Notes under the pieces: generated by a model
Database searches by the model: none
What the model was told of the DNA's origin: nothing
The model's input: only the letters and a program-made list of their open reading frames with translations
Translations under genes and position numbers: made by a program
Shown: positions 15,622 to 64,000 of the stretch, in pieces
Position numbering within the stretch: position 1 is the first letter of the stretch
Layout: the number at the start of each line of letters is the position of its first letter
NCBI GenBank assembly: GCA_025465145.1
Contig: JAODNS010000167.1
Span: forward strand, 2,621-66,620
DNA length: 64,000 nucleotides
From: Frankiales bacterium
GTDB lineage: Bacteria; Actinomycetota; Actinomycetes; Mycobacteriales; SCTD01
Reading direction: 5' to 3'

Positions 15622-15630
15622 GAGTCATTT

Positions 15631-15734: not shown

Positions 15735-15756
15735 CTGACTGGAGCGAGCGACGACC

Positions 15757-20071: not shown

Positions 20072-20114
20072 CTTCGATGCGTTGCCGTCGGGCGTGCTTT
20101 GGAGGTTACCGACA

Positions 20115-20132: not shown

Positions 20133-20182
20133 CGTGCGGTTCCACCCCCCGGCACGGCCCAGGCCGCGGGCACAGTTCCCGC

Positions 20183-41346: not shown

Positions 41347-41376
41347 AGCTCATCTCCTCGCGGTCGGGTCGACCGG

Positions 41377-43704: not shown

Positions 43705-43761
43705 GGGCGTAGTGCCGCGGCGGGCAGCACCGACGACCGCGTTGCTGAAAGCGACGTCACG

Positions 43762-51269: not shown

Positions 51270-51314
51270 GCCCGTCTCCGTCCTGTCGTGGGGAAGCGCG
51301 TCCGTCTCGCCTGG

Positions 51315-51710: not shown

Positions 51711-52834
51711 GACGAGCCCAAGATCAGCGTCGAGTGCGTGTGCATGATCCCTCCTTGGTTCGACACGAGTGAGGTCGTCGCCCCTACCACCTGGTTGGAC
51801 GACGTGCCACGGATCTGCCGCACGCCCTCGGTCACGAGCTGCATGCCGGGCATGCCGCTCTCCGAGAGCAGACCGCCGCTGGTGTTGACAGGCAGGGCAC
51901 CGCCGATCTCGATGCGTCCGTCCTCGACGAACGGGCCGCCTTCGCCCTTCTTGCAGAAGCCGTAGTCCTCGAGGGTCATCAACACGGTGATGGTGAAGCA
52001 GTCGTAGAGCTGCGCGACCTGGATGTCCTTGGGCCCGACGCCCGCCATGGCGAAGGCCGTTGCCGCCGAGACGGCAGCTGCCGTGTCGGTGAGCCGGGGG
52101 CGCTGAGCGACCTCCCAGGACGTCTGCCCCTGACCGTAGCCGAGGATCGGCACGGGGGCGGGCACGCCGACGGCACGGGCGCGCACGGCGCTCATCAGCA
52201 CGACCGCCGCACCGCCGTCGGAGATCAGGCAGCAGTCGTCGCGGCGCAACGGGTCGACGACCTGTCGCGAGGCGGCGTAGTCCTGTGCGGAGAGCGGCTT
52301 GCGGAGCTGGGCGCCGGGGTTGTTGGCACCGTGCCTCCGGCACGCCTGCGCGACAGCCCCGAGGTGCTCCTGCTTCGTGCCGAACTCCTCCATGTGCCGT
52401 CGCGCGATCATCGCGTAGCTGGCGGGGGTACCGAACCAGCCGAACACCGCGTCGTCTCCCCACCCGCGTTCATAGGCCTGCCGGGTGCCGGTCCGCGGGT
52501 TGTCAGCGATGGTCACGAGCGCGACCTCGCACTGCCCCTGCTCGATGGCGGAGGCCGCGAACCCGATCATCGAAGCGCTCGCCGCCCCGCCCTGGTCCCA
52601 GACACCGCCGATGCGCGGCTGCAGCCCCATGGCCTCGGCCATCGTCTGCCCGTACATCGGCAGGTGACCCGACGTCGGGTACTTGACGAAGAGGGCGTCC
52701 ACCGCGTCCTTGTCGACGTTGGCGTCCTGTAGCGCCTTACAGCAGGCCTCCACGTTCAAGGAGGTCGGCGAGCGGTCCGGGTGCTTGCCCTGCGCTGTCT
52801 GGCCGATCCCGGCGATCACGACCTTGCCGCGCAT
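51707..52834 (-). CDS. SCP-x/nsLTP-type thiolase-fold protein
   Basis: The start MRGKVVIAGIGQTAQGK is at 52834. The ORF has a thiolase-like fold with the C-terminal NTSGGLLS. It is paired with a DUF35 gene, as in BbsAB- or DitF-type systems. Confidence 0.85.
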   Translation of the reverse strand: MRGKVVIAGIGQTAQGKHPDRSPTSLNVEACCKALQDANVDKDAVDALFVKYPTSGHLPMYGQTMAEAMGLQPRIGGVWDQGGAASASMIGFAASAIEQGQCEVALVTIADNPRTGTRQAYERGWGDDAVFGWFGTPASYAMIARRHMEEFGTKQEHLGAVAQACRRHGANNPGAQLRKPLSAQDYAASRQVVDPLRRDDCCLISDGGAAVVLMSAVRARAVGVPAPVPILGYGQGQTSWEVAQRPRLTDTAAAVSAATAFAMAGVGPKDIQVAQLYDCFTITVLMTLEDYGFCKKGEGGPFVEDGRIEIGGALPVNTSGGLLSESGMPGMQLVTEGVRQIRGTSSNQVVGATTSLVSNQGGIMHTHSTLILGSS

Positions 52835-54024
52835 CAGATCACTCCCTTGACGTGCAACTCGGCGATGGTGCCGGCGTCCAGTCCGAGCCACTCGCCGTAG
52901 ACCTGCTCGTTGTGCTGGCCGAGGGTGGGGCTCGGCACGAGCTGCGCGTAGTGGTCCCCGACGCGGATCGGGCTGTGCGGCATAACCAGCGGACCCTCCT
53001 GCGGATGGTCCATCTCGACGAGCATGCCGCGCTGCCGCAGGTGCGGATCGGCCACCACCTCGGCGATCTGTCGCACCGGGGCGCTCGGGACCCCGACCGT
53101 CTGGAGCTTCTGCACCAGCTCGGCCTTGGTGAACTGTCGCGTCCAGCTGCCGACCTGCGCATCGACCTCGTCGATGATGCGCACACGTGCCACCCGGTCC
53201 ACGTAGTCCGGGTGTTCGATGAGCTCCGGGCGGCCCATCAGGCCGGCCAGGGCGCGCCAGTGCCCCTCGCTCACGCAGATCAGAGCGATGTGGCCATCGC
53301 TCGCCGGGTAGACGTTGTACGGCGCCTCGGCCATCCCGGAGTGCCGGTTGCCGGTCCGCGTCGGGGCCTCGCCGGTGCTGCCGAAGTACAGACCTAGACT
53401 GGACATCAGGCTCGGGTAAACCGAGTCCAGCATGGCGGCCTCGACCGCGGTCCCCTTGCCTGTGCGCTCGCGCTGGTAGAGGCCGGCGGCAATGGCGCCG
53501 TACAGGTGGATGCCCCCCATGAAGTCGCTGACGGCCGGTCCGGCCTTGACCGGATCGCGGTCGGGGAAGCCCGTGACGGACATGATCCCGGACATCGCCT
53601 GGATGGTGATGTCCATGGCAGGCAGGTCGCGATAGGGCCCTGTGGACCCGTAGCCGGAGCCGGACGCGTAGACGAGTCGCGGGTTGATCTCGCTCAGGCG
53701 CTCGAAGCCGATTCCCAGCCGGTCCGTGACCCCGGGGCGGAAGTTCTCGACGAAGACGTCGGCCTTCTCAACCATCTTCTCCAGCAGGGCCACGCCCTCG
53801 GGCGCTTTGAGGTTCAGGGTCACCGCGCGCTTGTTGCTGTTGAGCATGGCGAACGGAGCACCCGCCCCCGCGACGCGTCCCCGGCCTCGCAGGTTCTCGC
53901 CCGTGAGGGGCTCGACCTTGATGACGTCGGCGCCGCCGAGCGCCAGCAGGAAGGTCGCGTACGACGCGTTGTAGATCTGGCCGAGGTCGACGACCGTCAC
54001 ACCTGCGAAAGGAGCCTCGTCCAT
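52834..54024 (-). CDS. family III CoA-transferase (CaiB/BaiF/Mcr family)
   Basis: A 396-aa ORF with GVTVVDLGQIYNASYATFLLALGGADVIKVEP, NKRAVTLNLK and AVSDFMGG (candidate catalytic Asp region). Confidence 0.85.
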   Translation of the reverse strand: MDEAPFAGVTVVDLGQIYNASYATFLLALGGADVIKVEPLTGENLRGRGRVAGAGAPFAMLNSNKRAVTLNLKAPEGVALLEKMVEKADVFVENFRPGVTDRLGIGFERLSEINPRLVYASGSGYGSTGPYRDLPAMDITIQAMSGIMSVTGFPDRDPVKAGPAVSDFMGGIHLYGAIAAGLYQRERTGKGTAVEAAMLDSVYPSLMSSLGLYFGSTGEAPTRTGNRHSGMAEAPYNVYPASDGHIALICVSEGHWRALAGLMGRPELIEHPDYVDRVARVRIIDEVDAQVGSWTRQFTKAELVQKLQTVGVPSAPVRQIAEVVADPHLRQRGMLVEMDHPQEGPLVMPHSPIRVGDHYAQLVPSPTLGQHNEQVYGEWLGLDAGTIAELHVKGVI

Positions 54025-54027: not shown

Positions 54028-54804
54028 TCAGCTGCCCGTAAAGTTCGCGGAGCGGCGCTCCGCGAACGCGGCCGGCCCCTCTTTGGCGTCGTCGGTGAAG
54101 CTCAGCAGCCGGTTCAGCGCCTGCTCCAGCCGCAGCCCAGTGTTCCGGTCGACGTCGCGCGAACGCAGAGCCAGCTCCTTCGTCGCCTGGACGGCCAGCG
54201 GGGCGTTGGCGGAGATCTCCCTGGCCAGCTCGAAAGCAGCCGCCAGCAGCTCCTCCTTCGGCACCACCCGGTTGACAAGTCCCCACCGCGCGGCGGTCTC
54301 GGCGTCAATCCGCTTGCCGGTGAGGAGCATCTCCATCGCGATGGCGTGTGGAAGCTGCTCGAGGATGCGCTGCGTGCCCCCGTTACCCGGCACGACGCCA
54401 CGGGCCACCTCGCTGAGCCCGAACGTGGCGGTCGGGGTGGCGAGCCGGAGGTCAGTCGCGAGCAGCAGCGTCATGCCCCCACCCAGGCAGTAGCCGTTCA
54501 CAGCGGCGATGACCGGCTTCCAGACCTCCAGGCCGCGATTGAGAAGCTGGTCCTGCTGGGTGAGCCAGAACTGCGACATCTCCGGCGGCGCGTTGACGAA
54601 GCTCTTCAGATCGGCGCCGGTGCTGAAGGCACGGTCGCCGGCCCCGGTGATGACCGCGACCCGGATGTCGGCGTCATCGCGAACACGGCTCCACGCCGCG
54701 GACAGCTGCTGGTAGGCCTCGGCGTCCATGGCATTCATCCGCTCAGGGCGGTTCATCGTGATCAGGGCGACGCCCGTGTCGTCGACCTCCAGCTCGACGG
54801 TCAA
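54028..54804 (-). CDS. enoyl-CoA hydratase/isomerase (crotonase)
   Basis: A 258-aa ORF with VALITMNRPERMNAM, VITGAGDRAFSTGADL and AAVNGYCLGGG. Confidence 0.9.
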   Translation of the reverse strand: MTVELEVDDTGVALITMNRPERMNAMDAEAYQQLSAAWSRVRDDADIRVAVITGAGDRAFSTGADLKSFVNAPPEMSQFWLTQQDQLLNRGLEVWKPVIAAVNGYCLGGGMTLLLATDLRLATPTATFGLSEVARGVVPGNGGTQRILEQLPHAIAMEMLLTGKRIDAETAARWGLVNRVVPKEELLAAAFELAREISANAPLAVQATKELALRSRDVDRNTGLRLEQALNRLLSFTDDAKEGPAAFAERRSANFTGS

Positions 54805-55976
54805 CGCGAACTGCCCTTGCCGGACAACAGCTGGCGGGCGACCACCATGCGGTGCACCTCGGAGGGACCTTCACCGATCCGCTTGATCCGCATCTCGCGG
54901 TACCAGCGCTCCAGCGGGAGCTCCTTGGCGACACCCATGCCGCCGAGCACCTGGATGCAGCGATCCACGACCCGGCCCGCCGTCTCCGTGGCGGACACCT
55001 TTGCGATGGACGCTTCGAGCTTGAAGTCCTGGCCCATGTCAGCTTTCCACGCCGCGTTGTAGACCAGCCCCCGCGATGCGCGGATCTCGATCTCGGAGTC
55101 CGCGACCATCCACTGGATGGCTTGCTTGTCAGCGAGCTTGCTGCCGAAGACCTCGCGGTTCTTGGCGTAGTCGATGGCCAGCTCCAGTGCGGCGCTGGCG
55201 ATGCCGAGCGTTGCCGCGGCGTACGGCACCCGGCCGTGGACGAGCCACTGCTGGGCCAGGGCGAAACCCCTGCCCTCGTCCCCTATGAGGTTCTCGACCG
55301 GCACACGGCAGTCCTCGAAGGAGAGCTCGCAGGGGTACCAGGAGCGGATGACCGGGATGAGCTTCATGCTCAGCCCGGGGGTGTCCTTCTCGACGATGAA
55401 GCAGCTGACCCCGTTGCGGCCCGCGCTGGTCCGTGCGAACACGACCCCCCAGTCGGAGTAGTTGGCAGCAGAGATCCAGACCTTCGTCCCGTTCAGCACG
55501 TAGTGGTCGCCGTCCCGCACCGCGGTCGTCTGGATGCTGCGCGCCGGGTCCGATCCACCAGACGGCTCACTGATCGCGACGAACGTCTTGCCCCCCGAAG
55601 CGATGGTCGGTACGGCGTACTTCTGGATCTGCTCCTCGGTGCCGCGGTAGACCACGTTGGGCGGGTCCCAGCCGAAGGCGCCTCCCGCGGGGACGTAGGC
55701 CCCCATCCGGCATTGCGACGCCTCCTCCGCGACGATCACCTGCTCGAGCAGGCTCATCTCGCTGCCGCCGTACTGCGCGGGCGACGCGATGCACCAGATC
55801 CCGGCTTGGCGGGCCTTCTTGCTGGCAGCTGCCAGGACGTCCGGCGGCAGCTTGAACGCGTCGAACGGAAGCGTCTCCTCGACTGGGCGGATCTCCTTCT
55901 GCACGAAGTCCCGTGCCACCCGCTGCAAGCCCTTGAGCTCGTCGGACATCTCCCAGCCACCGCGGTCGGTCATCAT
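54801..55976 (-). CDS. acyl-CoA dehydrogenase
   Basis: A 391-aa ORF with FVAISEPSGGSDPA, LNGTKVWISAA, FGSKLADKQAIQWMVADSEIEI and RIGEGPSEVHR. Confidence 0.9.
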   Translation of the reverse strand: MMTDRGGWEMSDELKGLQRVARDFVQKEIRPVEETLPFDAFKLPPDVLAAASKKARQAGIWCIASPAQYGGSEMSLLEQVIVAEEASQCRMGAYVPAGGAFGWDPPNVVYRGTEEQIQKYAVPTIASGGKTFVAISEPSGGSDPARSIQTTAVRDGDHYVLNGTKVWISAANYSDWGVVFARTSAGRNGVSCFIVEKDTPGLSMKLIPVIRSWYPCELSFEDCRVPVENLIGDEGRGFALAQQWLVHGRVPYAAATLGIASAALELAIDYAKNREVFGSKLADKQAIQWMVADSEIEIRASRGLVYNAAWKADMGQDFKLEASIAKVSATETAGRVVDRCIQVLGGMGVAKELPLERWYREMRIKRIGEGPSEVHRMVVARQLLSGKGSSR

Positions 55977-56125: not shown

Positions 56126-56635
56126 TCAGAACGGCGCGTCGTAGCCGCCCAGGAGCCGGCTGAAGCGCCACACGCCGTCCGGGTCCTTGACCAGCTCGAG
56201 CCGGTAGGGGCCGACCGTCTCCGTCGACACGGACGCGGCGGCAGCTGCTGTGAGCATGAGGTAGGCGTGCGCGGTGGCGATACTCGCGCCGAGATCGTCA
56301 ATCACTACGTTGGTAAAGATGTGCCGGCGCTGGTCGGCCTGCTGTGACCAGAAGCCCATGAGCCACTCGACGATGGTGGCGCGGCCCACGAAGGGACCCA
56401 CCTGATCGCGACCCATGATCAGCCCCTCCCAGCTGCCGTCCTCGGTGAAGCAGTCCTCGAGTCCCTGCTGGTCGCGCTCGTCGTAGGACCAGCCGTAGCG
56501 GTAGATGCGCTCCGCGATGAGCAGGCGGTCGATGGCGGCGCCGGCCTGTGCCTCGGCAGCCAGTCGCTGAACACGGGTGTGGCCGGTCTGGCGAGCCCAG
56601 GCAGGCACCGGTCGTAGGTCGCTGGCATCGCTCAT
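56126..56635 (-). CDS. NTF2/SnoaL-like protein
   Basis: The ATG at 56635 is preceded by GAGGAGA. The product has IDRLLIAERIYRYGWSYDERDQQGLEDCFTEDGSW ... GVWRFSRLLGGYDAPF. Confidence 0.7.
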   Translation of the reverse strand: MSDASDLRPVPAWARQTGHTRVQRLAAEAQAGAAIDRLLIAERIYRYGWSYDERDQQGLEDCFTEDGSWEGLIMGRDQVGPFVGRATIVEWLMGFWSQQADQRRHIFTNVVIDDLGASIATAHAYLMLTAAAAASVSTETVGPYRLELVKDPDGVWRFSRLLGGYDAPF

Positions 56636-56684: not shown

Positions 56685-57479
56685 TCACGTCCCGAGAAAC
56701 GTCGGTCGTGACCGCTGCGCGAAAGCGGCTCTCGCCGCCAAGTGGTCGTCGGTGGAGTAGCAGACTGCCTGGCCAAGCGCCTCCAGGGTTGCCATCTCCG
56801 ACCAGGTCGACTGCAACGACTGGTCCAGCAGTCGCTTCGCCAGCCCCAGCGCGACCGTGGGTCCGGCTGCCAGTTGCGTGGCCAGCTGCTGCGACTCCGC
56901 CCGCACATCGTCCGCAGGCACCACCCGGTTGATCAGACGCATCTCCAGTCCCTCCTTGGCCGTGAAGGTGCGGCCGGTCAGCACCAGGTCCTTCACGAGG
57001 CTGCTGGGAAGGCGTCGGGGCAGGAAGTAGAGCGCGCCGCAGTCCGGCAGCAGGCCGATGCGCATGAAGGCGCACGACATCACGGCGGTATCGGCCGCCA
57101 CGATCAGGTCGCAGGCGAGAGCGAGGCTGAGCCCGGCCCCGTGGGCGTGCCCGTTGACGGCGGCAACCGTCGGCTTCTCCATCTCGGCCAGCGGTTGGAA
57201 GACGTCGCGCAGGAGGACCTGCAGCCTTGCCCGGCTGTGCGTCGGCGTGTCGTTGAGCTCCATCTCGACGACGTCGCCACCGGCGCAGAAGGCTGCTCCA
57301 GCCCCGGTGACGACGACGCACCTCACGGTGGGGTCGTCGGCGAGCGAGGCGAACGTCTCGGCGAGCGACCGCTTGAGATCCATGTTCAGCGCGTTACGCG
57401 CGTCCGGGCGGTTGAGTGTGACCGTGGCAACGCCAGAGTCGCGCTGCACGAGCAGGTGCGCGTACTCCTGGTCGGTCAC
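56685..57479 (-). CDS. enoyl-CoA hydratase/isomerase (crotonase)
   Basis: A GTG at 57479 overlaps the upstream stop. Motifs are VATVTLNRPDARNAL, VVTGAGAAFCAGGDV and AAVNGHAHGAG. Confidence 0.85.
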   Translation of the reverse strand: MTDQEYAHLLVQRDSGVATVTLNRPDARNALNMDLKRSLAETFASLADDPTVRCVVVTGAGAAFCAGGDVVEMELNDTPTHSRARLQVLLRDVFQPLAEMEKPTVAAVNGHAHGAGLSLALACDLIVAADTAVMSCAFMRIGLLPDCGALYFLPRRLPSSLVKDLVLTGRTFTAKEGLEMRLINRVVPADDVRAESQQLATQLAAGPTVALGLAKRLLDQSLQSTWSEMATLEALGQAVCYSTDDHLAARAAFAQRSRPTFLGT

Positions 57480-58420
57480 TGCTGGTCCGGCGACGGCACC
57501 GGCTCGAAGTAGTCGATGTCGTTGAGGGTCCCCCGGCAGTCGGCCGGGTCCTTCCACACCGCCCGCACCGGCATGCCGATGGACAGCCGCTCAGCTGCTG
57601 TGGCCACATCGAAGCCGGCGACCGTGTGGATGAGCCTCGTCGCCGAACCGTCCAGCACGATCTCGGCGTAGATGTACGGCGGCGTGCGGGTCTGCCCGAC
57701 GAACTCCAGGTGAATCACCGAGAACGCCTGCAGCACGCCGTGGTCACTGACGTCCACGTGCTGTCCGGTGCGGACGAAGCACGCGTCGCAGAACTCGCGA
57801 GGCGGGACCAGCACGTTTCGGCATGTGGGGCACAGCGAACCGAGGATGCGACGGCTTGACGCCAGCTCGTCGAAGAGTCGCCCGTAGTGCGGGCCGTAGG
57901 AGTGCTGGTACTCCAGCTCGAGCTGGTGCGGCACCTGCGCGATCAAGCCGACCTCGCCCGCAGGGTGCGCTGTGCCCGGAGGCTGGTCGTCCTCGTCCAG
58001 GACGAAGCAGTCGAGGTCGAGCACCGACTGCGTGGCGGTGGCCGCCCACACGGCACGGACCCGCGTCCCCACGGTGACAGCGCCCTTCGCGAGGTCCAGG
58101 CGGTGGAGCAGGTCGGCATCCGCTCCGTCGAGCCGGATCAGCGCAAGCACGCCTCTGTCCGTGCGTGTCAGCGCGGTCACGGTGCCGGTCTCCGGGAGCT
58201 GCACGAACTCGTCAGGCGCCTCGCCGCAACGCGAGCAGTAGTCGCTAGGCGGTACGACGGTCCGCGAGCAGACTTCGCACCGGGAGCCCAGGATGCGGTG
58301 GTTGCCGAGCTCGAACAGGAACGACCCGGCAGCCGGGCCCGTGGTCAAGGTGTAGGGCATGGAGAGCGTCGTCGTGAGGACCTGTGCTTCGTCGATGCTG
58401 GTCACCAACCCGTCCGTCAT
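57476..58420 (-). CDS. tandem double DUF35 (two Zn-ribbon/OB-fold units) protein
   Basis: The start MTDGLVTSI is at 58420. There are two ribbons, CEVCSRTVVPPSDYCSRC and CPTCRNVLVPPREFCDAC, each followed by an OB-fold-like segment. Confidence 0.8.
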   Translation of the reverse strand: MTDGLVTSIDEAQVLTTTLSMPYTLTTGPAAGSFLFELGNHRILGSRCEVCSRTVVPPSDYCSRCGEAPDEFVQLPETGTVTALTRTDRGVLALIRLDGADADLLHRLDLAKGAVTVGTRVRAVWAATATQSVLDLDCFVLDEDDQPPGTAHPAGEVGLIAQVPHQLELEYQHSYGPHYGRLFDELASSRRILGSLCPTCRNVLVPPREFCDACFVRTGQHVDVSDHGVLQAFSVIHLEFVGQTRTPPYIYAEIVLDGSATRLIHTVAGFDVATAAERLSIGMPVRAVWKDPADCRGTLNDIDYFEPVPSPDQQ

Positions 58421-58427
58421 CTTCGGC

Positions 58428-59582
58428 TCAGCCCTTCTCGCTGGAGACCACGGCAACGCCGCGGAGGTTGGCCCAGCCGCCACCGGCCTGCATGAGGCCC
58501 ACGCGCGCGTCAGGGACCTGGTGGGCACCCGCCCGTCCGCGCACCTGCTGGGCGATCTCGGCCAGTCGGATCAATGCGGTGGCACCGATGGGGTTCGCTC
58601 CCATGCAGCCGCCCGAGGGGTTGACCGGGATATCGCCGGTGAGCTCCGTAGCGCCAGACGCAACCAGCTCAGCGGCGCCGCCGGGAGGGCAGAGCCCCAA
58701 CCCCTCGTAGTAGCTGAGCTCGAAGCAGGTGAACGGCTCCTGCACCTCGACCACGTCGCACTGACGACGCGGGTTCGTGATTCCGGCCTGCTGGTAGACC
58801 CGGCTCGCAGCCAGGGTGAGCGGCTCGGACTGGATCATCGACCGGTACGCGGCGTTCTCGGCCTCGCAGTAGTAGGCCATGCCGCGGATCCAGGCCGGGT
58901 CGAGGCATGCTTTGGCGGCGCTCTCGCTTGCCAGGATTACGGCGCACGCACCGTCCGAGATCGGCGGGACGTCGAGCAACTTGATCGGCCAGCACAGCGG
59001 GCGGGAGGACAGGACGTCCTCGACGCTGACCTCCTTGCGCACATGCGCGTAGGGATTGAGCATCGCGTTCTTGTGGTTCTTGACGCTGACCAGCGCAGCG
59101 GCCTCCTCGGTGTGCCCGAGGACGTCCATGCGGGCCCGCCAGTACGCCGCCGAGAAGCCCATGATGCCGACGGCGAACTCCCGGCCCCAGAACGGGTCGT
59201 ACAAGGTGGAGATGGAGTACTGGAGCGCGCCCTCCGAGAGCTTGTCGTAGGCGACGACGAGGACCCGGTCGGCGAACCCGGCGCGCACCTGGTTGACGGC
59301 CGCGAGGGCCCCCGCTAGCCCGGTGCCACCGCCGCTGGTGACCCGCACGACCGGTTTCAGCCGCGCGCCAATCGCGTCGACCAGCCACTTCTCGGGCTGG
59401 TTCACCGCAGCGAACAGGACCGGGCCGGTGCACACGACGACGCTGTCGATGTCGGCCATGGTCAGCCCGGCGTCCTCCAGAGCGCGGGTGACGGCCTCGC
59501 GAGCCAACCCCACCTGGCTCACGTCCTTGCGGCGGCGCGAGTGATGGGTCTGCCCGACGCCGACGATGGCCACAGCGGGCAC
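58428..59582 (-). CDS. thiolase-fold protein (nsLTP/Ltp-like), apparently lacking the nucleophile Cys
   Basis: The GTG at 59582 is preceded by GGAGG. The product begins VAIVGVGQTHHSRRR. The segment expected to carry the nucleophile reads RVTSGGGTGLAGALAAV where NACASG would be expected. The C-terminus has NPSGGCMGANPIGATA. Confidence 0.8.
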   Translation of the reverse strand: MPAVAIVGVGQTHHSRRRKDVSQVGLAREAVTRALEDAGLTMADIDSVVVCTGPVLFAAVNQPEKWLVDAIGARLKPVVRVTSGGGTGLAGALAAVNQVRAGFADRVLVVAYDKLSEGALQYSISTLYDPFWGREFAVGIMGFSAAYWRARMDVLGHTEEAAALVSVKNHKNAMLNPYAHVRKEVSVEDVLSSRPLCWPIKLLDVPPISDGACAVILASESAAKACLDPAWIRGMAYYCEAENAAYRSMIQSEPLTLAASRVYQQAGITNPRRQCDVVEVQEPFTCFELSYYEGLGLCPPGGAAELVASGATELTGDIPVNPSGGCMGANPIGATALIRLAEIAQQVRGRAGAHQVPDARVGLMQAGGGWANLRGVAVVSSEKG

Positions 59583-59583
59583 G

Positions 59584-60726
59584 TCATACCTCCAAAGTGA
59601 ACACGCAGTGGTTCTGCATTCCGAGGCCGCCCGCTCCGTGCGCAAGAGCACGCGTCGGCTGTCCCTCGCCGATACGTCCAGCCAGGCGGGCACTCGCCTC
59701 GTGCAGTCGGACCAATCCGGTGGCCATGATCGGGTCTGCCGGCACGGCGCCTCCGGACGGGTTGACATCGACCTGCGCGCCGTCGGCGTAGCAGTCCACG
59801 CCGTGCCCGACAGCTGCCAGGCCGAGCGCCTCCACGACCATCGCCTCAGTGGCCGACGACGACGCGGTGACCTCCACCAGGTCGACGTCGGATGCATCCT
59901 TCAGCCCCGCGCGAGACATAGCCATGTGAGCGGCTACCTGGCACGCCTCGAGCTGCCCGGGTAGGCGCTCGCTGAGCAGGTGACTGTCCATCGCCGAGCC
60001 CATGCCGGTCACCCAAACGGGCCGATCGGACAGTCTTCTTGCCACCGGCTCGGAAGCCAGCAGGACCGCGACGGCGCCGTCGCGAGGGCGCGCGATCTGC
60101 AAGCTGCGCAGCGGGTCCGCGACGAGGGCGGACCTGGCCACGTCCTCTGGACCGAGGTCAGGGGACTGCTCGATCCAGGGGTTGCCGGCTGCCCTGCTCC
60201 ACGCCCGCTCGGCGATGCGCAGCAGCGCCTCCTCGTCGGCATCGGTACGCGTGAGGTACTGGTTTGCCATCAGGCCGGCGGTACTCACTTGATCGAGTCC
60301 CAGGGCCCGCTGGTAGAACGGCTCGGTCAGAGTGGAGTAGTAGGCAGAGACGTCGGACTCAGACGGCTTGGAGTAGGCCAGCACGAGCGCCACGGATGCC
60401 GACCCGCAGGCCACCTTCGTCGTCGCGTACACGGCGCCGAACAGGCCGTCTTCCTCGACCCGTGACTCCTCCTTGTGGTGCGCGCCCATTGCACCGAGGA
60501 AGCCGCAGTTAGAGATGCTGCGGCCGTCGAGGACGTCGCTGCCGCAGTCGATGACGACGTCGACGTCGGCGATGTTGAGGCCGCTTCCTCGAAGGACGTC
60601 ACTGACGACGCCGCCGATGAGATCGACCTGCTGCAGCCGGGACCACGCGTCACGAAGGACGGTCTGCGCACTCGCCACCACGGCGACTCGACTGCTGCTA
60701 CCGGAAGCCATGCGGGACGCTAACAT
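59584..60726 (-). CDS. thiolase-fold protein (second Ltp-like subunit)
   Basis: A 380-aa ORF with a thiolase-like layout (VAVVASAQT..., NPSGGAVPADPIMATG). Its stop lies 1 nt before the next gene start. By eye there is no obvious Cys at the nucleophile position (SRVEEDGLFGAV). Confidence 0.8.
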   Translation of the reverse strand: MLASRMASGSSSRVAVVASAQTVLRDAWSRLQQVDLIGGVVSDVLRGSGLNIADVDVVIDCGSDVLDGRSISNCGFLGAMGAHHKEESRVEEDGLFGAVYATTKVACGSASVALVLAYSKPSESDVSAYYSTLTEPFYQRALGLDQVSTAGLMANQYLTRTDADEEALLRIAERAWSRAAGNPWIEQSPDLGPEDVARSALVADPLRSLQIARPRDGAVAVLLASEPVARRLSDRPVWVTGMGSAMDSHLLSERLPGQLEACQVAAHMAMSRAGLKDASDVDLVEVTASSSATEAMVVEALGLAAVGHGVDCYADGAQVDVNPSGGAVPADPIMATGLVRLHEASARLAGRIGEGQPTRALAHGAGGLGMQNHCVFTLEV

Positions 60727-60749
60727 GCCAAACGGTTGGTTGGGAAGAG

Positions 60750-61772
60750 CTATCTCCCAGGCGCCTGCTCAGGGCCGAGCGTGTCGACGATCGCCTCCAG
60801 ATTGGCGGTCGTCTCGTCGGCGCCGGAGCCGACGGTCTGGAAGACCACCTCCGTCACCCCGCGGGCGGCGTACTCAGCGGAGAGGCTGGCCCAGCCGGCT
60901 CTCACCTCAGCGGCCGTGCCGGCGAGGCAGAACTCGGCGACCATCTCGTCCGGGATCAACGCGGCGATCGCATCCCAGTCGCCACCGCGCTCGAGATACA
61001 GGTCCCGGACCAGCTGGGCCGTGTCGCCCCATCCGGTCTCGTCGGCCGCGATGGCGTAGCTGGGAGTTGTGAAGTAGAAGCCGAGACTCTTGCGAGCGCG
61101 GTCGCGGGCGGCGCCGCCGTCGGAGGCGATGGACGTCATGCGCCAGAGCGCGAGCTCGGGAGAATGACCAGCGCTCGCACCGCCTTCGGCGATGGCAGGC
61201 AGGACGACCTGGTCCAGGTAGCGCACGCTGCCGCCGAGCGGGTGGACCGCTACCCCGTCGCAGGAACGTGCGGCGATCCGCAGCATCGTGGCGTTGATGC
61301 CGGAGCCCCAAATGGGAACCGGCGCCCGCGCACCATCGAGCTCGTTGTAGCTGCCAGAGAAGAAGCGGCCGTCGTGGCGGAACGATCGCTCGGCACTCCA
61401 GGCGGAGCGGAGTAGGCCGGCGTACTCCTCCAGCCTGCTGGCCGCGTGATCGAAGTCCGGGATGCCGTACCAACGAGACCGCATACCTTGCGTGCCGGCG
61501 CCGAGTCCCAGGCTGAATCGCCCGCCGCTGGCTACCTGAACATCGGCCGCCGCGGCCGCCATGGCGAGCGGCGCGCGTGTGAACGCGTAGGCGATCCCCG
61601 TGGCCACGCCGATGGTCTCGGAGTGTAGGGCGAACGTCAGCGCTCGCACCAAGGCGTCTCGACCGGGGTTCTCCGTGGTCCAGATGCGATCGAAGCCGGC
61701 CGCCTCGGCCCGCTTCGTCACCTCGATCAGGGGCAGGAACTCCGGTGAAGCGAAGACGACGGATCTCTTCAT
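60750..61772 (-). CDS. LLM-class oxidoreductase (possibly F420-dependent)
   Basis: The start is likely MKRSVVFA at 61772. The product has AEAAGFDRIWTTENPGRDA, GGRFSLGLGAG and PIWGSGIN, typical of luciferase-like enzymes. Confidence 0.8.
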   Translation of the reverse strand: MKRSVVFASPEFLPLIEVTKRAEAAGFDRIWTTENPGRDALVRALTFALHSETIGVATGIAYAFTRAPLAMAAAAADVQVASGGRFSLGLGAGTQGMRSRWYGIPDFDHAASRLEEYAGLLRSAWSAERSFRHDGRFFSGSYNELDGARAPVPIWGSGINATMLRIAARSCDGVAVHPLGGSVRYLDQVVLPAIAEGGASAGHSPELALWRMTSIASDGGAARDRARKSLGFYFTTPSYAIAADETGWGDTAQLVRDLYLERGGDWDAIAALIPDEMVAEFCLAGTAAEVRAGWASLSAEYAARGVTEVVFQTVGSGADETTANLEAIVDTLGPEQAPGR

Positions 61773-61785
61773 CGGGGTTGACCTC

Positions 61786-62754
61786 TCAACGGACGGCGAC
61801 GGCATTGGCCGGTGACCCCACCCCGCCGGCCAGGTTCAACGGCACGGCCAGGAAGAGGAACGTCCAGCGCCGGTCGGCAGCGCAGCGACTCGCGAGCTCC
61901 TCGAGGTCGAACAGCTCGCCCACCGCCAGTCCCAGACCGGGCTGCAGGCGACGGTGAAGGCTGCCCACGGCCGGGTCTCCGGGCGATACCTCCGCGGCTG
62001 GGTTGTCACAGGCGATGGCCGCGACCTGCCAGTCCCAAAGAGCGGCTGCCAGCTCGGAGTCTGCGGCCAGACCGGCGTATGGCGGCGACCCCGGGATGGC
62101 GGCGTAGGCGCGCCGCTCGGCGGGATCAAGCGCCCGGTAGCCGGCAACCCAGCCGAAGCGCAGGCAGAGCACGTCTCCGCGGCGGATCTCTACATGCTGC
62201 GACGCTGCGACGCTGCGAAGCAGGTCGGCGCCGACGGACACGTCGGTCATGGCGTCGTAGTCGCCGCCGCTCTCCCGCAGGAAGCGGTCGATGTCGAGCA
62301 GCACGCCGCGGCCGACGATGCCCCGGTCGGCCCAATGGTCGATGCCGAGTCGCGAACCCTGCTCGGGGGGAGAGTCCAGCACTCCCCCGTAGAAGCCGAG
62401 CTCGCGGCACCGCACGTGGCGCAACCCGTCCCACTGCGACGAGGCCTGCGGATAGAACGCGTCCAGCCGGTCGTCCCAGGTGTTGCGGTCCATCGGCAGC
62501 AGCGTGTGGCGCAACGGCTCGCGGCCGTACAGCGGCGGGTCGATCTCGGAAGTGGTGAGAGTCAGGCCGACCCGCTCTCCGGTCACGGCGGCCTGCAGCG
62601 CGGCGAGCACCGTGGCGTCGTCGAGCAGGTTCAGGGTGCCGAGCTCGTCATCCGGTCCGAAGACATCCCAGGAGTGTGCGATCTGCAAGCCGGGAAGAAG
62701 CGGGAGCTCGGCGTAGGGCGGGAGCTCCAAGCCCTCCAGAACGGGCCGCGTCAC
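61786..62754 (-). CDS. cyclase-family protein (kynurenine-formamidase-like fold)
   Basis: A GTG at 62754 overlaps the upstream stop. The product has SSQWDGLRHV, GVLLDI and CLRFGW, which resemble the putative-cyclase family. Confidence 0.75.
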   Translation of the reverse strand: MTRPVLEGLELPPYAELPLLPGLQIAHSWDVFGPDDELGTLNLLDDATVLAALQAAVTGERVGLTLTTSEIDPPLYGREPLRHTLLPMDRNTWDDRLDAFYPQASSQWDGLRHVRCRELGFYGGVLDSPPEQGSRLGIDHWADRGIVGRGVLLDIDRFLRESGGDYDAMTDVSVGADLLRSVAASQHVEIRRGDVLCLRFGWVAGYRALDPAERRAYAAIPGSPPYAGLAADSELAAALWDWQVAAIACDNPAAEVSPGDPAVGSLHRRLQPGLGLAVGELFDLEELASRCAADRRWTFLFLAVPLNLAGGVGSPANAVAVR

Positions 62755-63650
62755 GTCGGCAACCCGGCGGCCAGCTCGCGCAGCGACGTCACGTGCCTGA
62801 GGTAGTGGTGCAGGCCCATCTCCCACGTGAAGCCCAGGCCTCCATGCACCTGCACCGCGGTCTCGACGATCCGAAGCGAGGCGTCGAACGCGAACTGCGA
62901 CGCCGCTTCCGACCGGCCAGGTTCAAGGCTGGCCAGGATCACCGCGGTCTCGGCCTGCTCGGCGAGCAGGTGGGCGTCTGCGAGCTGGTGCTTCACCGCC
63001 TGGAAGCGGCCGATCGGTTGCCCGAACTGCTCGCGCTGCTGGGCATAGGCAACGGCATCATGGAGCATCCGGGCACCGCAGCCAGTTGCTTCAGCGGCCC
63101 AGACCACCCTCATCTCCGTTGCCGCCACGTTCGACCACGACGTGACAGTCGCCCACTCGGCCAGGCGCAAGGACGGGGCGTAAGGATCCAGGACGACGTC
63201 TGCCGAAGGCTCCAGGAGCTCATGGGAGTGACTCCCGTCGTCCGCGACAGTGAGGACGCGGACGTCCTCGTCTGCACCGAACGGCGCTACACCGCGGTCC
63301 CCCGAGGTACGCGTCTGAACAGACAACGTTACGGGGCCCACGTGCTCACGCCCCGCGGCAGACCAGCGCTTCGCCATGATGGTGGGGATGAGCGGTGACG
63401 GCGCGATGGTCCAGCCCCAGGTCCGCGCCACCTCGACCAGGTCACGCAGCGACGCGCCGGCACCGCCCGTGGCCTCCGTGGCGCCGAGAAGGTCCCAACC
63501 GCCGCTGGTGATCGCCTTCCAGGTCAGCGGTTCCGCCTCGACGTAAGCGACCACAGGATGACCGCTTACCGCCCGAGACAGCATCTGCCGCAACGCGGCG
63601 GCGGCTTCGGCACCGACCTCAGTCAAGCCGAGATCCCCGACTGCAGTCAC
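62751..63650 (-). CDS. acyl-CoA dehydrogenase, small beta-type subunit of a heteromeric ACAD
   Basis: A GTG at 63650 overlaps the upstream stop. The roughly 299-aa product has an ACAD C-terminal domain (REQFGQPIGRFQAVKHQLADAHL, VHGGLGFTWE) but a shortened, divergent N-terminal part. Confidence 0.8.
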   Translation of the reverse strand: MTAVGDLGLTEVGAEAAAALRQMLSRAVSGHPVVAYVEAEPLTWKAITSGGWDLLGATEATGGAGASLRDLVEVARTWGWTIAPSPLIPTIMAKRWSAAGREHVGPVTLSVQTRTSGDRGVAPFGADEDVRVLTVADDGSHSHELLEPSADVVLDPYAPSLRLAEWATVTSWSNVAATEMRVVWAAEATGCGARMLHDAVAYAQQREQFGQPIGRFQAVKHQLADAHLLAEQAETAVILASLEPGRSEAASQFAFDASLRIVETAVQVHGGLGFTWEMGLHHYLRHVTSLRELAAGLPT

Positions 63651-64000
63651 TTGGGCAGCCCGAGCACGCGCTCGCCGATGATGTTGCGCTGGATCTCGGA
63701 GGTCCCGGAGTAGATGGTGGCCGCCCGGCTCTCGAGGTACTGGTGGCGCCAGTGCGCTCGGTGCTCGGGGCACGACAGCGGTACGGCGACGGCGGTTAGC
63801 TCCTGCCAGAGCTCGCTCCACATGACCTTGAGCACCATGGATGCCCGCAGGAATCCACCCGGGTGGTCTTGCCGGGCGACCGCCTTGCTGACCTGGCAGC
63901 GCACCAGCTCCACGCGGATGTCCAGTGCGCGCAGCTGGTCGACAGCCTCACCCGGCCGGGCGCAGCAGCCGAGCAGCAGGTCCATGTCGGAGCGCAGCTC
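63647..64000 (-). CDS. acyl-CoA dehydrogenase, alpha-type subunit (C-terminal part only; 5' end beyond the right edge)
   Basis: The C-terminus ...YLESRAATIYSGTSEIQRNIIGERVLGLPK is a canonical ACAD C-terminal motif. The ORF continues past 64000. Confidence 0.8.
   Translation of the reverse strand, partial: ELRSDMDLLLGCCARPGEAVDQLRALDIRVELVRCQVSKAVARQDHPGGFLRASMVLKVMWSELWQELTAVAVPLSCPEHRAHWRHQYLESRAATIYSGTSEIQRNIIGERVLGLPK

What the first reader, a model, noticed from the sequence alone, without database searches (positions are those of the whole stretch)
56685..61772. Two Cys-less thiolase-fold genes plus a tandem-DUF35 protein, a crotonase and an LLM oxidoreductase (Ltp3/Ltp4-like system of unknown function)
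The genes run LLM oxidoreductase, thiolase-like A, thiolase-like B, a 314-aa protein with two complete DUF35 units (two CxxC-x10-CxxC ribbons), and a crotonase. Gaps between the thiolase-like A, thiolase-like B and DUF35 genes are 1-7 nt, and the DUF35 gene overlaps the crotonase start. This arrangement implies a stoichiometric complex.

By eye, thiolase-like B reads RVTSGGGTG where thiolases carry the nucleophile (NACASG). Thiolase-like A shows no obvious Cys there either. The steroid aldolase Ltp2, which works with a DUF35 domain, also lacks the thiolase Cys and catalyses retro-aldol cleavage.

From memory, the M. tuberculosis KstR regulon has a similar, uncharacterised set: Rv3520c (F420 LLM), Rv3521 (DUF35), ltp4 and ltp3. 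If that recollection holds, this is a portable C-C cleaving heterocomplex whose substrate and chemistry are not established.
Basis: partly seen in the sequence, partly recalled or inferred. Interest (0 to 1): 0.65.

Follow-up and report, generated by a model that had tools for sequence, protein, structure and literature searches.

The report
Cysteine-less thiolase pair with double DUF35
Three tightly linked genes encode what looks like an uncharacterised carbon-carbon bond-cutting enzyme complex, a relative of a mycobacterial sterol side-chain system, that is strikingly conserved across bacterial phyla but has none of the catalytic residues known for its protein family.

Summary
On the minus strand lie an LLM oxidoreductase, thiolase-like A, thiolase-like B, a 314-aa tandem DUF35 protein and a crotonase. 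The gaps between them are 23, 1 and 7 nt, followed by a start/stop overlap.

B has Gly at the thiolase nucleophile position. A has that loop deleted.

The Mtb recollection holds. A true sterol-cluster set from Tsukamurella (tandem DUF35, Ltp4, Ltp3) is homologous component by component, at 38, 30 and 40% identity. The window's proteins fall well below the NCBIfam Ltp4 and Ltp3 cut-offs, and no sterol genes were found in the window. This is a sister family, not an orthologue.

The A-B-DUF35x2 trio keeps the same order in about 60 loci from Actinomycetota, Dormibacterota and Alpha-, Beta- and Gammaproteobacteria. Its usual neighbours are a heteromeric acyl-CoA dehydrogenase, this PaaG-like crotonase and a CoA ligase. 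A pyruvate-carboxylase-type biotin carboxylase is often present too. The LLM is an actinobacterial accessory.

B is 73-90% identical across phyla. It carries invariant Gln-Glu-Pro where Ltp2, Sal and Ltp3 have the catalytic Tyr motif.

My best reading is a heteromeric, non-covalent C-C lyase acting on an unknown branched or alicyclic acyl-CoA. Substrate and chemistry remain open.

The parts
59584..60726 (-). Thiolase-like A (380 aa). Ltp4-type, probably non-catalytic partner subunit. The nucleophile loop is shortened by 3 residues ('RVEE---DGL'), S/T-A-S-S replaces HDCF, and Asp331 replaces the GHP His.
   Evidence: Pfam Thiolase_C_1. NCBIfam best hit is NF005924, 185 bits against a cut-off of 419. 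30% identity to Tsukamurella Ltp4. hhalign against the B family. Column counts over 65 orthologues.
58428..59582 (-). Thiolase-like B (384 aa, GTG start). Ltp3-type and the candidate catalytic subunit. Gly85 sits at the Cys position, Q281-E282-P283-F284 at the HDCF/YDHF position, Asn330 at the His/Tyr344 position and Gln365 at the thiolase-I Cys378 position. All are invariant in 63 orthologues.
   Evidence: Pfam. PDB best hit is SCP2-thiolase 6hsj, 1e-43, with a residue-level alignment. NF006180 scores 362 bits against a cut-off of 514. 40% identity to Tsukamurella Ltp3. Conservation.
57476..58420 (-). Tandem DUF35 protein (314 aa) with two Zn-ribbon plus OB units. Proposed clamp, one unit per thiolase-fold subunit.
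   Evidence: Pfam gives two zf-ChsH2 and two OB_ChsH2_C stretches. PDB DUF35 hits are 3irb, ChsH2-DUF35 6ok1_B and 6esq_E. 38% collinear identity to the Tsukamurella Rv3521-like protein. N matches N and C matches C between the two.
56685..57476 (-). Crotonase-fold protein (263 aa), PaaG-like. It lacks both canonical hydratase Glu and keeps Asp in 'LPDCG'. Its start overlaps the DUF35 stop.
   Evidence: Pfam ECH_1. NCBIfam nearest are PRK09245, PaaG and oxepin_alt, all below cut-off. Alignment A3 with orthologues and EchA19. Junction read. Co-occurs in 54 of 67 loci.
60750..61805 (-). LLM-class oxidoreductase (351 aa, or 340 aa from the internal start at 61772). An actinobacterial accessory, not part of the conserved core.
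   Evidence: Pfam Bac_luciferase. NCBIfam best hit is TIGR03617, 152 bits against a cut-off of 278; the Rv3520c family scores 89 against 335. 26% identity to the Tsukamurella sterol-cluster LLM. Present only in actinobacterial loci.
61786..62826 (-). Cyclase-family protein (PF04199). Conserved next to the ACAD pair in actinobacterial versions.
   Evidence: Pfam. Synteny with L001, L003 and L061.
62751..63821 (-). Acyl-CoA dehydrogenase beta-like subunit, with only the C-terminal ACAD domain recognisable.
   Evidence: Pfam. NCBIfam gives weak IpdE2 and PimD hits. ACAD alpha/beta pairs sit next to the trio in most loci.
63647..64000 (-). Acyl-CoA dehydrogenase alpha subunit. Only the C-terminal part is present; the gene is cut by the window end.
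   Evidence: Pfam Acyl-CoA_dh_1. 61% identical orthologues in L003 and L061.
56126..56635 (-). SnoaL_4 (NTF2-like) protein. Accessory in actinobacterial and some sphingomonad versions.
   Evidence: Pfam. Co-occurrence in L004, L010, L061, L025, L032 and L035.

Best explanation
A, B and the tandem DUF35 protein most likely form a 1:1:1 (or 2:2:2) complex. In this model a heterodimer of two different thiolase-fold subunits is clamped by a double DUF35 protein, one DUF35 unit per subunit.

The complex is the C-C bond-cleaving step of a CoA-dependent catabolic route for a carboxylic acid that ordinary beta-oxidation cannot handle, probably branched or alicyclic. The proposed sequence is:
1. The acid is taken up and activated by an AMP-forming CoA ligase (or, in this window, possibly a family III CoA-transferase).
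2. It is desaturated by a heteromeric PimC/PimD-like acyl-CoA dehydrogenase.
3. It is processed by the PaaG-like crotonase that is translationally coupled to the DUF35 gene.
4. It is cleaved by the complex without a covalent acyl-enzyme. This would be a retro-aldol-type reaction releasing a short acyl-CoA plus a carbonyl compound.
5. In many genomes a co-clustered pyruvate-carboxylase-type biotin carboxylase and lactonase-like hydrolases would then process that carbonyl product.

B is the likely catalytic subunit. It uses a residue set not seen in any characterised relative, namely Gln281/Glu282, Asn330, Gln365 and perhaps Cys286 or His14. A is a structural or specificity partner.

**Shown:** gene anatomy, absence of the known catalytic residues, homology to Ltp3/Ltp4/Rv3521, co-conservation and genomic context.

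**Inferred:** complex formation, which subunit is catalytic, the reaction type and the substrate class.
For: **Fold and partners**
- Both proteins have an SCP2-thiolase-type fold. All their solved relatives work with DUF35 partners: BbsAB, the archaeal thiolase/HMGCS/DUF35 complex, Ltp2-ChsH2, Sal-Shy and PhlACB (PMC12329534).

**Thiolysis is excluded**
- B has Gly85 in 63 of 63 sequences. A has the loop deleted. Neither has the HDCF Cys or the GHP His.

**Homology to the sterol set**
- Each of the three components is homologous to the corresponding member of the sterol Rv3521/Ltp4/Ltp3 set.
- That set is genetically assigned to aldol-type cleavage of C24-branched sterol side chains (PMC6593523, citing Wilbrink 2012).

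**Evidence for a complex**
- Junctions of 1 nt and 7 nt, then a start/stop overlap.
- Identical A-B-DUF35x2 order in all long loci.
- Distant relatives have the unfused order DUF35, A-type, B-type, DUF35.
- The N and C DUF35 units are each orthologous to the same unit of the sterol-cluster protein.

**Pathway logic**
- The minimal Comamonadaceae cluster is an ABC transporter, CoA ligase, ACAD, crotonase, the trio and a TetR regulator. No 3-hydroxyacyl-CoA dehydrogenase was found in the 21-kb locus.
- Across 67 loci the most frequent neighbours are the crotonase (54 loci), ACAD alpha (48), CoA ligase (45), an MBL lactonase-like protein (38), ACAD beta (38), and BCCP and PycB-like carboxyltransferase (32 each).

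**B as the catalytic subunit**
- 51% of its positions are at least 98% invariant. It is 73-90% identical across phyla, against 52-73% for A and 40-71% for DUF35x2.
Against: - No physical interaction or activity was tested.
- B lacks the Tyr base that Ltp2, Sal and Ltp3-type proteins keep. It also lacks their acid residue, so a retro-aldol mechanism has no identified base.
- The associated crotonase lacks both hydratase glutamates. How a 3-hydroxyacyl-CoA would form is therefore unclear.
- SDR genes sit upstream in many loci and could make a 3-oxo substrate instead.
- The window itself shows no PycB-type carboxylase within 64 kb.
- The AF2 model of B was poor (pLDDT 60), so no pocket geometry could be examined.
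- The substrate is unknown.
Confidence: 0.45

Rival explanations
1. It is simply the orthologue of the sterol Ltp3/Ltp4/Rv3521 system and removes C24 branches from phytosterol side chains.
For: All three components are homologous and each best matches the corresponding sterol-cluster protein. An LLM and a crotonase are also nearby, as in Mtb and Tsukamurella. Relatives occur in Sterolibacteriaceae and Steroidobacteraceae MAGs.
Against: - Scores are far below the NCBIfam cut-offs, which the true Tsukamurella orthologues pass (185 against 419 and 362 against 514, versus 593 and 734).
- Identity is only 30-40%.
- The gene order differs.
- The Ltp3 Tyr (YVPF) is replaced by invariant Gln (QEPF/Y).
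- The LLM and crotonase are not the Rv3520c or EchA19 types.
- Pfam scans of the long, coding-like (high-GC3) ORFs across the window gave no KshA, HsaC, Mce4 or Cyp125 hits.
- The family's context is a carboxylase/lactonase cluster.
Confidence: 0.07
2. The complex is a decarboxylase or Claisen/retro-Claisen-type enzyme, analogous to Cys-less KS-CLF or SLP proteins. It would act on a 3-oxo or carboxylated acyl-CoA made by the co-clustered biotin carboxylase, CoA ligase and SDR, rather than acting as a retro-aldolase.
For: - Polar Gln, Glu, Asn and Gln residues are invariant where thiolases place the Cys, His and Cys.
- A PycB-type carboxyltransferase, BCCP and biotin carboxylase are frequently adjacent, as are two CoA ligases and SDRs.
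- The crotonase is not a canonical hydratase.
- TbSLP, a Cys-less relative, has weak malonyl-CoA decarboxylase activity (PMC12329534).
Against: The carboxylase is missing from the Comamonadaceae minimal cluster and from this window. No precedent exists in the DUF35-associated clade. All the closest homologues with any functional assignment (Ltp3/4, Ltp2, Sal) are aldol-lyases.
Confidence: 0.18
3. A, B and DUF35x2 are catalytically dead. They would serve as a scaffold that assembles or channels between the ACAD, the crotonase and other enzymes, as DUF35 does in archaeal thiolase/HMG-CoA synthase and fatty-acid synthase complexes.
For: Every known catalytic residue is absent from both subunits. 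DUF35 proteins are documented scaffolds (bioRxiv 10.1101/2024.07.05.601840; PMC12329534). Very high conservation of B could reflect many protein interfaces.
Against: The invariant residues of B cluster at the classical active-site motifs (QEP, GANPIG, QxGGGW, SGGG) rather than only on surfaces. The minimal clusters contain no other candidate for a C-C cleavage step. Scaffolds rarely stay at 75-90% identity across phyla.
Confidence: 0.15
4. They are ordinary thiolases, with a mis-aligned or alternative Cys nucleophile.
For: B has two conserved Cys (Cys286 in 63 of 63 and Cys326 in 60 of 63 sequences), and A has an almost invariant Cys74 (63 of 65). Public annotations call B 'acetyl-CoA C-acetyltransferase' or 'propanoyl-CoA acyltransferase'.
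Against: The alignments to solved SCP2-thiolases are full-length and unambiguous (1e-43). The nucleophile position is Gly in all 63 sequences. The conserved Cys residues lie at +5 from the HDCF start and in the NPSGG loop, not at either catalytic position.
Confidence: 0.03

Closest known systems
Ltp3 / Ltp4 / Rv3521 (tandem DUF35) of the actinobacterial sterol (KstR) cluster. The reference copy used here is Tsukamurella tyrosinosolvens NZ_LR134446 (L084/L085).
   Same: - Same three-component architecture: two different Cys-less thiolase-fold proteins plus a roughly 310-aa tandem DUF35.
- A matches Ltp4, B matches Ltp3 and DUF35x2 matches Rv3521, each over full length (30, 40 and 38% identity).
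- Gly sits at the nucleophile position in both B and Ltp3, and both have Asn at the GHP His position.
- The N and C DUF35 units correspond one to one.
   Different: - The window's proteins fall below the NCBIfam cut-offs.
- The gene order is A-B-DUF35 here and DUF35-Ltp4-Ltp3 there.
- Ltp3 keeps Tyr (YVPF) and Ltp4 keeps His (HAPF). B has QEPF/Y and A has (S/T)ASS.
- The context is non-sterol, with a PimCD-like ACAD, a PaaG-like crotonase, and often a biotin carboxylase and lactonase-like genes.
- The family is spread across Proteobacteria as well.
Steroid side-chain aldolases Ltp2-ChsH2(DUF35) (PDB 6ok1) and Sal-Shy(DUF35) (PDB 9myr)
   Same: SCP2-thiolase fold, Gly at the nucleophile position, an obligatory DUF35 partner, and coupling to the preceding hydratase-type enzyme (PMC12329534).
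   Different: Those enzymes are homodimers with a single DUF35 per subunit, and their catalytic residues are Tyr294/Tyr344 (Ltp2) or Tyr302/Cys304 (Sal). B has Gln281/Pro283/Asn330 at those positions. Sequence similarity is lower than to true SCP2-thiolases: B scores 88 bits against 6ok1 and 153 bits against 6hsj.
PhlACB / MucABC multi-component acyltransferases (PDB 5m3k, 9vbo)
   Same: These are the only solved complexes that combine two different thiolase-superfamily subunits with a DUF35 protein.
   Different: PhlA is KAS-III-like rather than SCP2-like. PhlC uses a catalytic Cys (a C88S variant is deposited). The DUF35 subunit is single. The chemistry is Friedel-Crafts acyl transfer in biosynthesis, not CoA-ester catabolism.
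Unfused DUF35 / A-type / B-type / DUF35 clusters of anaerobic lineages (L070-L074: Thermodesulfobacteriota, Spirochaetota, Ca. Solincola)
   Same: They have the same A-type/B-type pairing. The A-type carries 'DGR(S/T)IS' and 'VE(G/E)DG', and the B-type carries 'GQTH' and 'TGG'. There is one DUF35 per thiolase-fold gene.
   Different: The DUF35 genes are not fused. Both thiolase-fold proteins retain Tyr (YDAF and YFPS). Identity to B is 36-42%. These clusters are uncharacterised.

Membership tests
Thiolase (SCP2-type, degradative) | Nucleophilic Cys at the N-terminus of helix N-alpha3 ('NNCSTG') | tested here: not met
   B has Gly85 in 63 of 63 sequences. A has a 3-residue deletion at this loop.
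Thiolase (SCP2-type, degradative) | Acid/base Cys in the HDCF loop and His in the GHP motif | tested here: not met
   B has Q281-E282-P283-F284 and Asn330. A has T-A-S-S and Asp331.
Thiolase (SCP2-type, degradative) | Thiolase superfamily fold over the full length | tested here: met
   PDB phmmer hits 6hsj (1e-43 for B) and 7yvy (5e-18 for A). hhalign of A against B covers 367 columns. Foldseek on a low-confidence model agrees.
Ltp3 (NCBIfam NF006180) / Ltp4 (NF005924) | Score above the curated family cut-off | tested here: not met
   B scores 362 against 514 and A scores 185 against 419. The Tsukamurella sterol-cluster proteins score 734 and 593.
Ltp3/Ltp4/Rv3521 system | Two distinct Cys-less thiolase-fold proteins encoded next to a tandem DUF35 protein | tested here: met
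Ltp3/Ltp4/Rv3521 system | Location in a sterol catabolic (KstR-type) cluster with fadD19, echA19, cyp125 and fadA5 | tested here: not met
   Pfam scans of the long, coding-like (high-GC3) ORFs across the 64 kb gave no sterol-specific families. The crotonase scores 189 against the EchA19 cut-off of 400. The rest of the genome is not available.
Ltp3/Ltp4/Rv3521 system | Requirement for growth on C24-branched sterols (the genetic definition from Wilbrink 2012) | not testable with these tools
   Needs mutants and growth assays. The paper itself is not held.
Ltp2 / Sal steroid retro-aldolases | Catalytic Tyr as the first residue of the YDHF / YDCY motif | tested here: not met
   B has Gln281 (63 of 63). 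A has Ser or Thr. Motif definitions come from PMC12329534.
Ltp2 / Sal steroid retro-aldolases | General acid: Tyr344 (Ltp2) or Cys304 (Sal) | tested here: not met
   B has Asn330 and Pro283 at these positions.
Ltp2 / Sal steroid retro-aldolases | Physical complex with a DUF35 domain | not testable with these tools
   Only genetic linkage and co-conservation were shown.
DUF35 (PF12172 + PF01796) | Rubredoxin-like Zn ribbon followed by an OB fold, present twice | tested here: met
   Two stretches of each Pfam model. Both Cys4 ribbons are present in the window protein. The Cys ligands are not conserved in most orthologues.
Enoyl-CoA hydratase (crotonase, hydratase subclass) | Two catalytic glutamates (rat ECH Glu144 and Glu164 equivalents) | tested here: not met
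   The positions carry Ser/Asn and Phe in the window protein and its orthologues. EchA19 of L084 has both Glu. The Glu numbering is from established knowledge of rat ECH.
F420-dependent LLM, Rv3520c family (TIGR03559) | Score above the family cut-off | tested here: not met
   89 bits against a cut-off of 335. The best family is TIGR03617, at 152 against 278. 26% identity to the Tsukamurella sterol-cluster LLM.

The most novel reading that the evidence does not exclude
The A-B-DUF35x2 trio may be the founding example of a new catalytic type within the thiolase superfamily. It would be an obligate heterodimer whose conserved subunit uses a Gln-Glu/Asn/Gln site, with no Cys and no Tyr, to break or make a C-C bond. 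It would be the key step of a widespread, undescribed, oxygen-independent pathway for alicyclic or isoprenoid-type acids. In that pathway the carbonyl product is re-activated by a pyruvate-carboxylase-type ketone carboxylase.
Probability: 0.3. Interest if true: 0.75.

Novelty: new variant of a known kind. Interest (0 to 1): 0.55.

Why it matters
Cys-less thiolase-fold aldolases with DUF35 partners have only recently been understood, and only for homodimeric steroid enzymes (Ltp2, Sal). The heteromeric Ltp3/Ltp4/tandem-DUF35 type has genetics but, as far as the searchable literature shows, no biochemistry or structure.

This window carries a sister family that is easier to reason about:
- It is very widespread in soil, peat and freshwater Actinomycetota and Proteobacteria.
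- Its B subunit is among the most conserved proteins of its cluster.
- It has replaced even the aldolase Tyr.

Solving its reaction would do three things. It would define a new active-site solution in a classic enzyme fold. It would explain why DUF35 is duplicated. It would also assign a function to a large, currently mis-annotated group, labelled 'acetyl-CoA C-acetyltransferase' or 'propanoyl-CoA acyltransferase', and to a conserved catabolic cluster with an unusual biotin carboxylase.

Tried and rejected
1. **Structure of B.** AlphaFold2 from 32 close homologues gave mean pLDDT 60, and the active-site segments were below 50. Foldseek therefore supports only the general fold.
2. **Plasmid tblastn with B.** This returned only paralogues at 45% identity or less. 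It did supply the Tsukamurella sterol-cluster reference and a Rhodococcus pLP1 paralogue with a single DUF35.
3. **A known pathway for the sphingomonad and actinobacterial clusters.** The Sphingobium Chol11 bile-salt side-chain cluster is different and is reported to encode no homologues of known side-chain thiolases or aldolases. The Rhodococcus oestrogen aedK/aedL pair is Ltp2/ChsH2-like, not this trio. Full-text searches for DUF35 with carboxylase, for Rv3521-3523 and for Ltp3/Ltp4 found no biochemical study. Wilbrink 2012 is not held.
4. **Glu as the nucleophile-position residue of A.** I first counted Glu92 there. The profile-profile alignment shows instead that the loop is deleted, and I adopted that reading.
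5. **Origin of the N and C DUF35 units.** I tried to match them to the two single DUF35 genes of the unfused clusters. This was not resolved, because both units score higher against the downstream one.
6. **Promoter and terminator scan of 48-64 kb.** Uninformative: 0 promoters, and 7 weak terminator-like sites against 3.7 expected.
7. **Substrate identity.** Not determined.

Full report
**Anatomy**

The window is about 70% G+C. A long run of co-directional minus-strand genes extends from about 39.9 kb to the window end. Pfam and NCBIfam assign the region of the finding as follows:

| Coordinates | Assignment |
|---|---|
| 63647-64000 | ACAD alpha, cut by the window end |
| 62751-63821 | ACAD beta-like |
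| 61786-62826 | PF04199 cyclase |
| 60750-61805 | LLM oxidoreductase |
| 59584-60726 | thiolase-like A, 380 aa |
| 58428-59582 | thiolase-like B, 384 aa, GTG start |
| 57476-58420 | tandem DUF35, 314 aa |
| 56685-57476 | crotonase |
| 56126-56635 | SnoaL_4 |

I read the junctions directly. The A stop and the B start are separated by 1 nt, with a GGAGG inside the 3' end of A. The B stop and the DUF35 start are separated by 7 nt. The DUF35 stop overlaps the crotonase GTG.

**Catalytic residues**

B aligns over its full length to zebrafish SCP2-thiolase (6hsj, 1e-43). The differences at the catalytic positions are:
- The nucleophile Cys ('NNCSTG') is Gly85 ('SGGGTG').
- The HDCF loop is Q281-E282-P283-F284.
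- The GHP His is Asn330.

The same three positions hold the catalytic residues of the steroid aldolases. Ltp2 has Y294-D-H-F and Tyr344. Sal has Y302-D-C304-Y and Gln352 (PMC12329534). The +50 spacing from the motif start to the second residue is the same in all of them. B therefore lacks both the thiolase residues and the known aldolase residues.

Across 63 orthologues, Gly85, Gln281, Glu282, Pro283, Cys286, Asn330 and Gln365 are invariant. Gln365 sits at the thiolase-I Cys378 position.

A is a diverged paralogue of B (hhalign probability 100%, 367 columns, 30% identity). It has a 3-residue deletion exactly at the nucleophile loop ('RVEE---DGL'), (S/T)-A-S-S at the HDCF position and Asp331 at the His position. 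A has its own almost invariant motifs, 'DGRSISNCG' and 'GAHHKEE.RVE(E/D)DG'.

**Relation to Ltp3/Ltp4**

The nearest NCBIfam models are NF005924 for A (185 bits, cut-off 419) and NF006180 for B (362 bits, cut-off 514).

A tblastn search of plasmid records found a Tsukamurella tyrosinosolvens record that carries an unmistakable sterol region. It contains an F420 LLM, EchA19 (428 bits), an AMP ligase, a 309-aa tandem OB/DUF35 protein and two thiolase-domain genes. A P450, a 'steroid 3-ketoacyl-CoA thiolase', an enoyl-CoA hydratase family protein, an IpdAB-like CoA-transferase pair and a nitronate monooxygenase follow.

Its two thiolase-domain proteins pass the cut-offs of NF005924 (593 bits) and NF006180 (734 bits). 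These models therefore are the Ltp4 and Ltp3 families.

Pairwise identities are as follows:
- B against Ltp3: 40% (5e-84).
- A against Ltp4: 30% (7e-35).
- DUF35x2 against the Rv3521-like protein: 38%, collinear.

The N and C DUF35 units are each closest to the same unit of the sterol protein. The fusion therefore predates the split of the two families.

The differences are these:
- The gene order is DUF35-Ltp4-Ltp3 in the sterol cluster and A-B-DUF35 here.
- Ltp3 retains Tyr (YVPF) and Ltp4 retains His (HAPF).
- The window LLM is not the Rv3520c type (89 bits against 335; 26% identity).

The window trio is a sister family, not the orthologue. Ltp3/Ltp4 themselves are described in the literature as aldol-lyases needed for C24-branched sterol side chains, on genetic evidence (PMC6593523 and PMC10398937, citing Wilbrink 2012). 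I found no biochemical or structural study in the searchable library.

**Distribution and conservation**

B is 100% identical to a protein from a Frankiales MAG. The best 120 database clusters are all at least 82% identical to it.

A scan of one genome per species returned 80 loci. Their identity to B falls into three groups:
- Actinomycetota and Dormibacterota at 76-90%, including Acrocarpospora, Saccharomonospora, Blastococcus, Microbacterium and Leucobacter.
- Many Proteobacteria at 73-79%, including Novosphingobium, Sphingobium, Sphingomonas, Caenibius, Sterolibacteriaceae, Steroidobacteraceae, Comamonadaceae, Chelatococcus and Rhizobiaceae.
- A distant set at 36-42%.

tblastn mapping shows A-B-DUF35x2 in the same order in every locus long enough to hold it. 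B is far more conserved (73-90%) than its neighbours:

| Protein | Identity across loci |
|---|---|
| A | 52-73% |
| DUF35x2 | 40-71% |
| Crotonase (in Proteobacteria) | about 40% |
| ACAD alpha (in Proteobacteria) | about 40% |
| Carboxyltransferase (in Proteobacteria) | 42-45% |
| Biotin carboxylase (in Proteobacteria) | 52-57% |

Recent transfer alone therefore cannot explain the conservation of B. 51% of its positions are at least 98% invariant. The Zn-ribbon cysteines of DUF35x2 are not conserved across the family.

**Context**

De novo clustering of ORFs from 67 loci gave the following co-occurring genes, which were labelled by Pfam and NCBIfam:

| Neighbour | Loci (of 67) |
|---|---|
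| Crotonase | 54 |
| PimC-like ACAD alpha | 48 |
| AMP-forming CoA ligase | 45 |
| AiiA-like MBL | 38 |
| PimD-like ACAD beta | 38 |
| BCCP | 32 |
| PycB/OadA-like carboxyltransferase | 32 |
| Lactonase-like Amidohydro_2 | 31 |
| Canonical thiolase | 29 |
| Enol-lactonase-like alpha/beta hydrolase | 21 |
| Biotin carboxylase | 18 |

In Acrocarpospora and Saccharomonospora the trio also sits with LLMs, cyclases, a 3-hydroxyacyl-CoA dehydrogenase and the carboxylase set.

The minimal Comamonadaceae unit is a Liv-type ABC transporter, CoA ligase, crotonase and ACAD. These lie divergent from A-B-DUF35x2-TetR and are followed by housekeeping genes.

LLM, cyclase and SnoaL occur only, or mainly, in actinobacterial versions.

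In the window I found no PycB-type carboxylase and no sterol ring or uptake genes. The rest of the window holds housekeeping genes, FAS-related genes and further beta-oxidation-type genes.

**The crotonase**

The protein coupled to the DUF35 gene, and its orthologues, carry Ser/Asn and Phe at the two positions of the canonical hydratase glutamates. They keep an Asp in 'PDxG', as PaaG-type isomerases do. The sterol EchA19 has both Glu. The nearest NCBIfam models are PRK09245, PaaG and the alternative oxepin-CoA hydrolase, all below cut-off. How, or whether, a 3-hydroxyacyl-CoA is produced is therefore open.

**Origin of the tandem DUF35**

In distant relatives from Thermodesulfobacteriota, Spirochaetota and Ca. 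Solincola the order is single DUF35, A-type, B-type, single DUF35. The A-type motifs are 'DGRTIS' and 'VEGDG' with YDAF. The B-type motifs are 'GQTH' and 'TTGGTTG' with YFPS.

This supports a heterodimer in which each thiolase-fold subunit has its own DUF35, later fused into one polypeptide. All solved DUF35 complexes have one DUF35 per thiolase-fold subunit (PMC12329534; PDB hits). The 1:1:1 model is an inference from these facts.

**Mechanism**

The conserved core of ligase, ACAD, crotonase and trio has no obligatory 3-hydroxyacyl-CoA dehydrogenase. The proteins lack any nucleophilic Cys. The only functionally assigned relatives are aldol-lyases.

The most economical reading is therefore a non-covalent, retro-aldol-type cleavage of a hindered acyl-CoA. 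This would yield a short acyl-CoA and a carbonyl compound, which many genomes would then carboxylate with the PycB-type biotin enzyme. That last step is my inference.

The missing Tyr base and the non-hydratase crotonase weaken this reading. They keep alive two rivals: a Claisen/decarboxylase-type reaction on a 3-oxo or carboxylated CoA ester, and a pure scaffold role.

I put 0.45 on the lyase model, 0.18 on the Claisen/decarboxylase rival, 0.15 on the scaffold, 0.07 on a plain sterol Ltp3/4 orthologue and 0.03 on a true thiolase. The remainder is unassigned.

**Verdict**

This is a real, non-random and correctly described gene set.

The system is a distinct and very widespread sister family of Ltp3/Ltp4/Rv3521, with altered active-site residues and a non-sterol context. 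The LLM is peripheral. I class it as a new variant of a known kind, of moderate to good interest as an enzymology target.

Noticed in passing
window 50808-52891 (-): 51707-52891 thiolase-like C; about 51315-51710 single DUF35; 50808-51314 MaoC. Upstream lie CoA-transferase III (52834-54024), ECH (54028-54804) and ACAD (54801-55976).: A second, separate Cys-less thiolase-fold module sits about 4 kb downstream of the trio. Thiolase-like C has Gly at the nucleophile position and a 'YDCF' motif, the Tyr/Cys dyad of the Sal/SLP-type retro-aldolases. Its best PDB hits are 4u4e, Ltp2 (6ok1, 195 bits) and Sal (9myr). It is followed by a single DUF35 and a MaoC hydratase, a Sal-Shy-like arrangement split into separate genes.
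   Followed up: partly
B orthologues in L003-L069 compared with their neighbouring genes: B is much more conserved across phyla (73-90% identity, half of all positions invariant) than the adjacent ACAD, crotonase, DUF35x2, carboxyltransferase or even biotin carboxylase. This is despite B lacking every known catalytic residue. The reason is unexplained.
   Followed up: partly
window 57476-58420 and its orthologues (alignment of 63 sequences): Both Cys4 zinc ribbons are intact in the window's tandem DUF35. The ligand cysteines are not conserved in most orthologues, especially the proteobacterial ones. The first unit of the Tsukamurella Rv3521-like protein also lacks them.
   Followed up: partly
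L070-L074 (for example L072 9286-12575): MAGs from Thermodesulfobacteriota, 'Deltaproteobacteria', Pseudomonadota, Spirochaetota and Ca. Solincola carry an unfused version: single DUF35, A-type, B-type, single DUF35. Both thiolase-fold proteins are Cys-less but retain Tyr. This looks like the ancestral layout of the Ltp3/Ltp4-type systems.
   Followed up: partly
L019 and L022 (Sterolibacteriaceae MAGs); L001 (Acrocarpospora) 14619-21155: Some loci carry two copies of the PycB-like carboxyltransferase/BCCP set flanking the trio. In Acrocarpospora, extra cyclase and CoA-ligase genes are interleaved with the carboxylase genes.
   Followed up: no
L083 (Rhodococcus qingshengii plasmid pLP1) 7075-9673: This is another paralogous layout. 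A 304-aa 'hypothetical protein' with no NCBIfam hit sits in the position of A. It is followed by a B/Ltp3-like thiolase-domain protein ('YAPF') and a single 160-aa DUF35, next to MaoC and ACAD pairs and a CaiB transferase.
   Followed up: no
window 13662-15293 (-): An ORF of up to 543 aa contains four cold-shock (CSD) domains in tandem (Pfam CSD 2e-79, 4 stretches). This is an unusual multi-CSD architecture for a bacterium.
   Followed up: no
window 39898-43761 (-): Downstream genes in the same co-directional run include an FAD_binding_2 (KstD/fumarate-reductase-like) flavoprotein, an isochorismatase, an SDR and a PEP-mutase/isocitrate-lyase-family protein. A sphingomonad locus has an MmgE/PrpD gene nearby. 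Both hint at propionyl-CoA (methylcitrate-type) handling.
   Followed up: no
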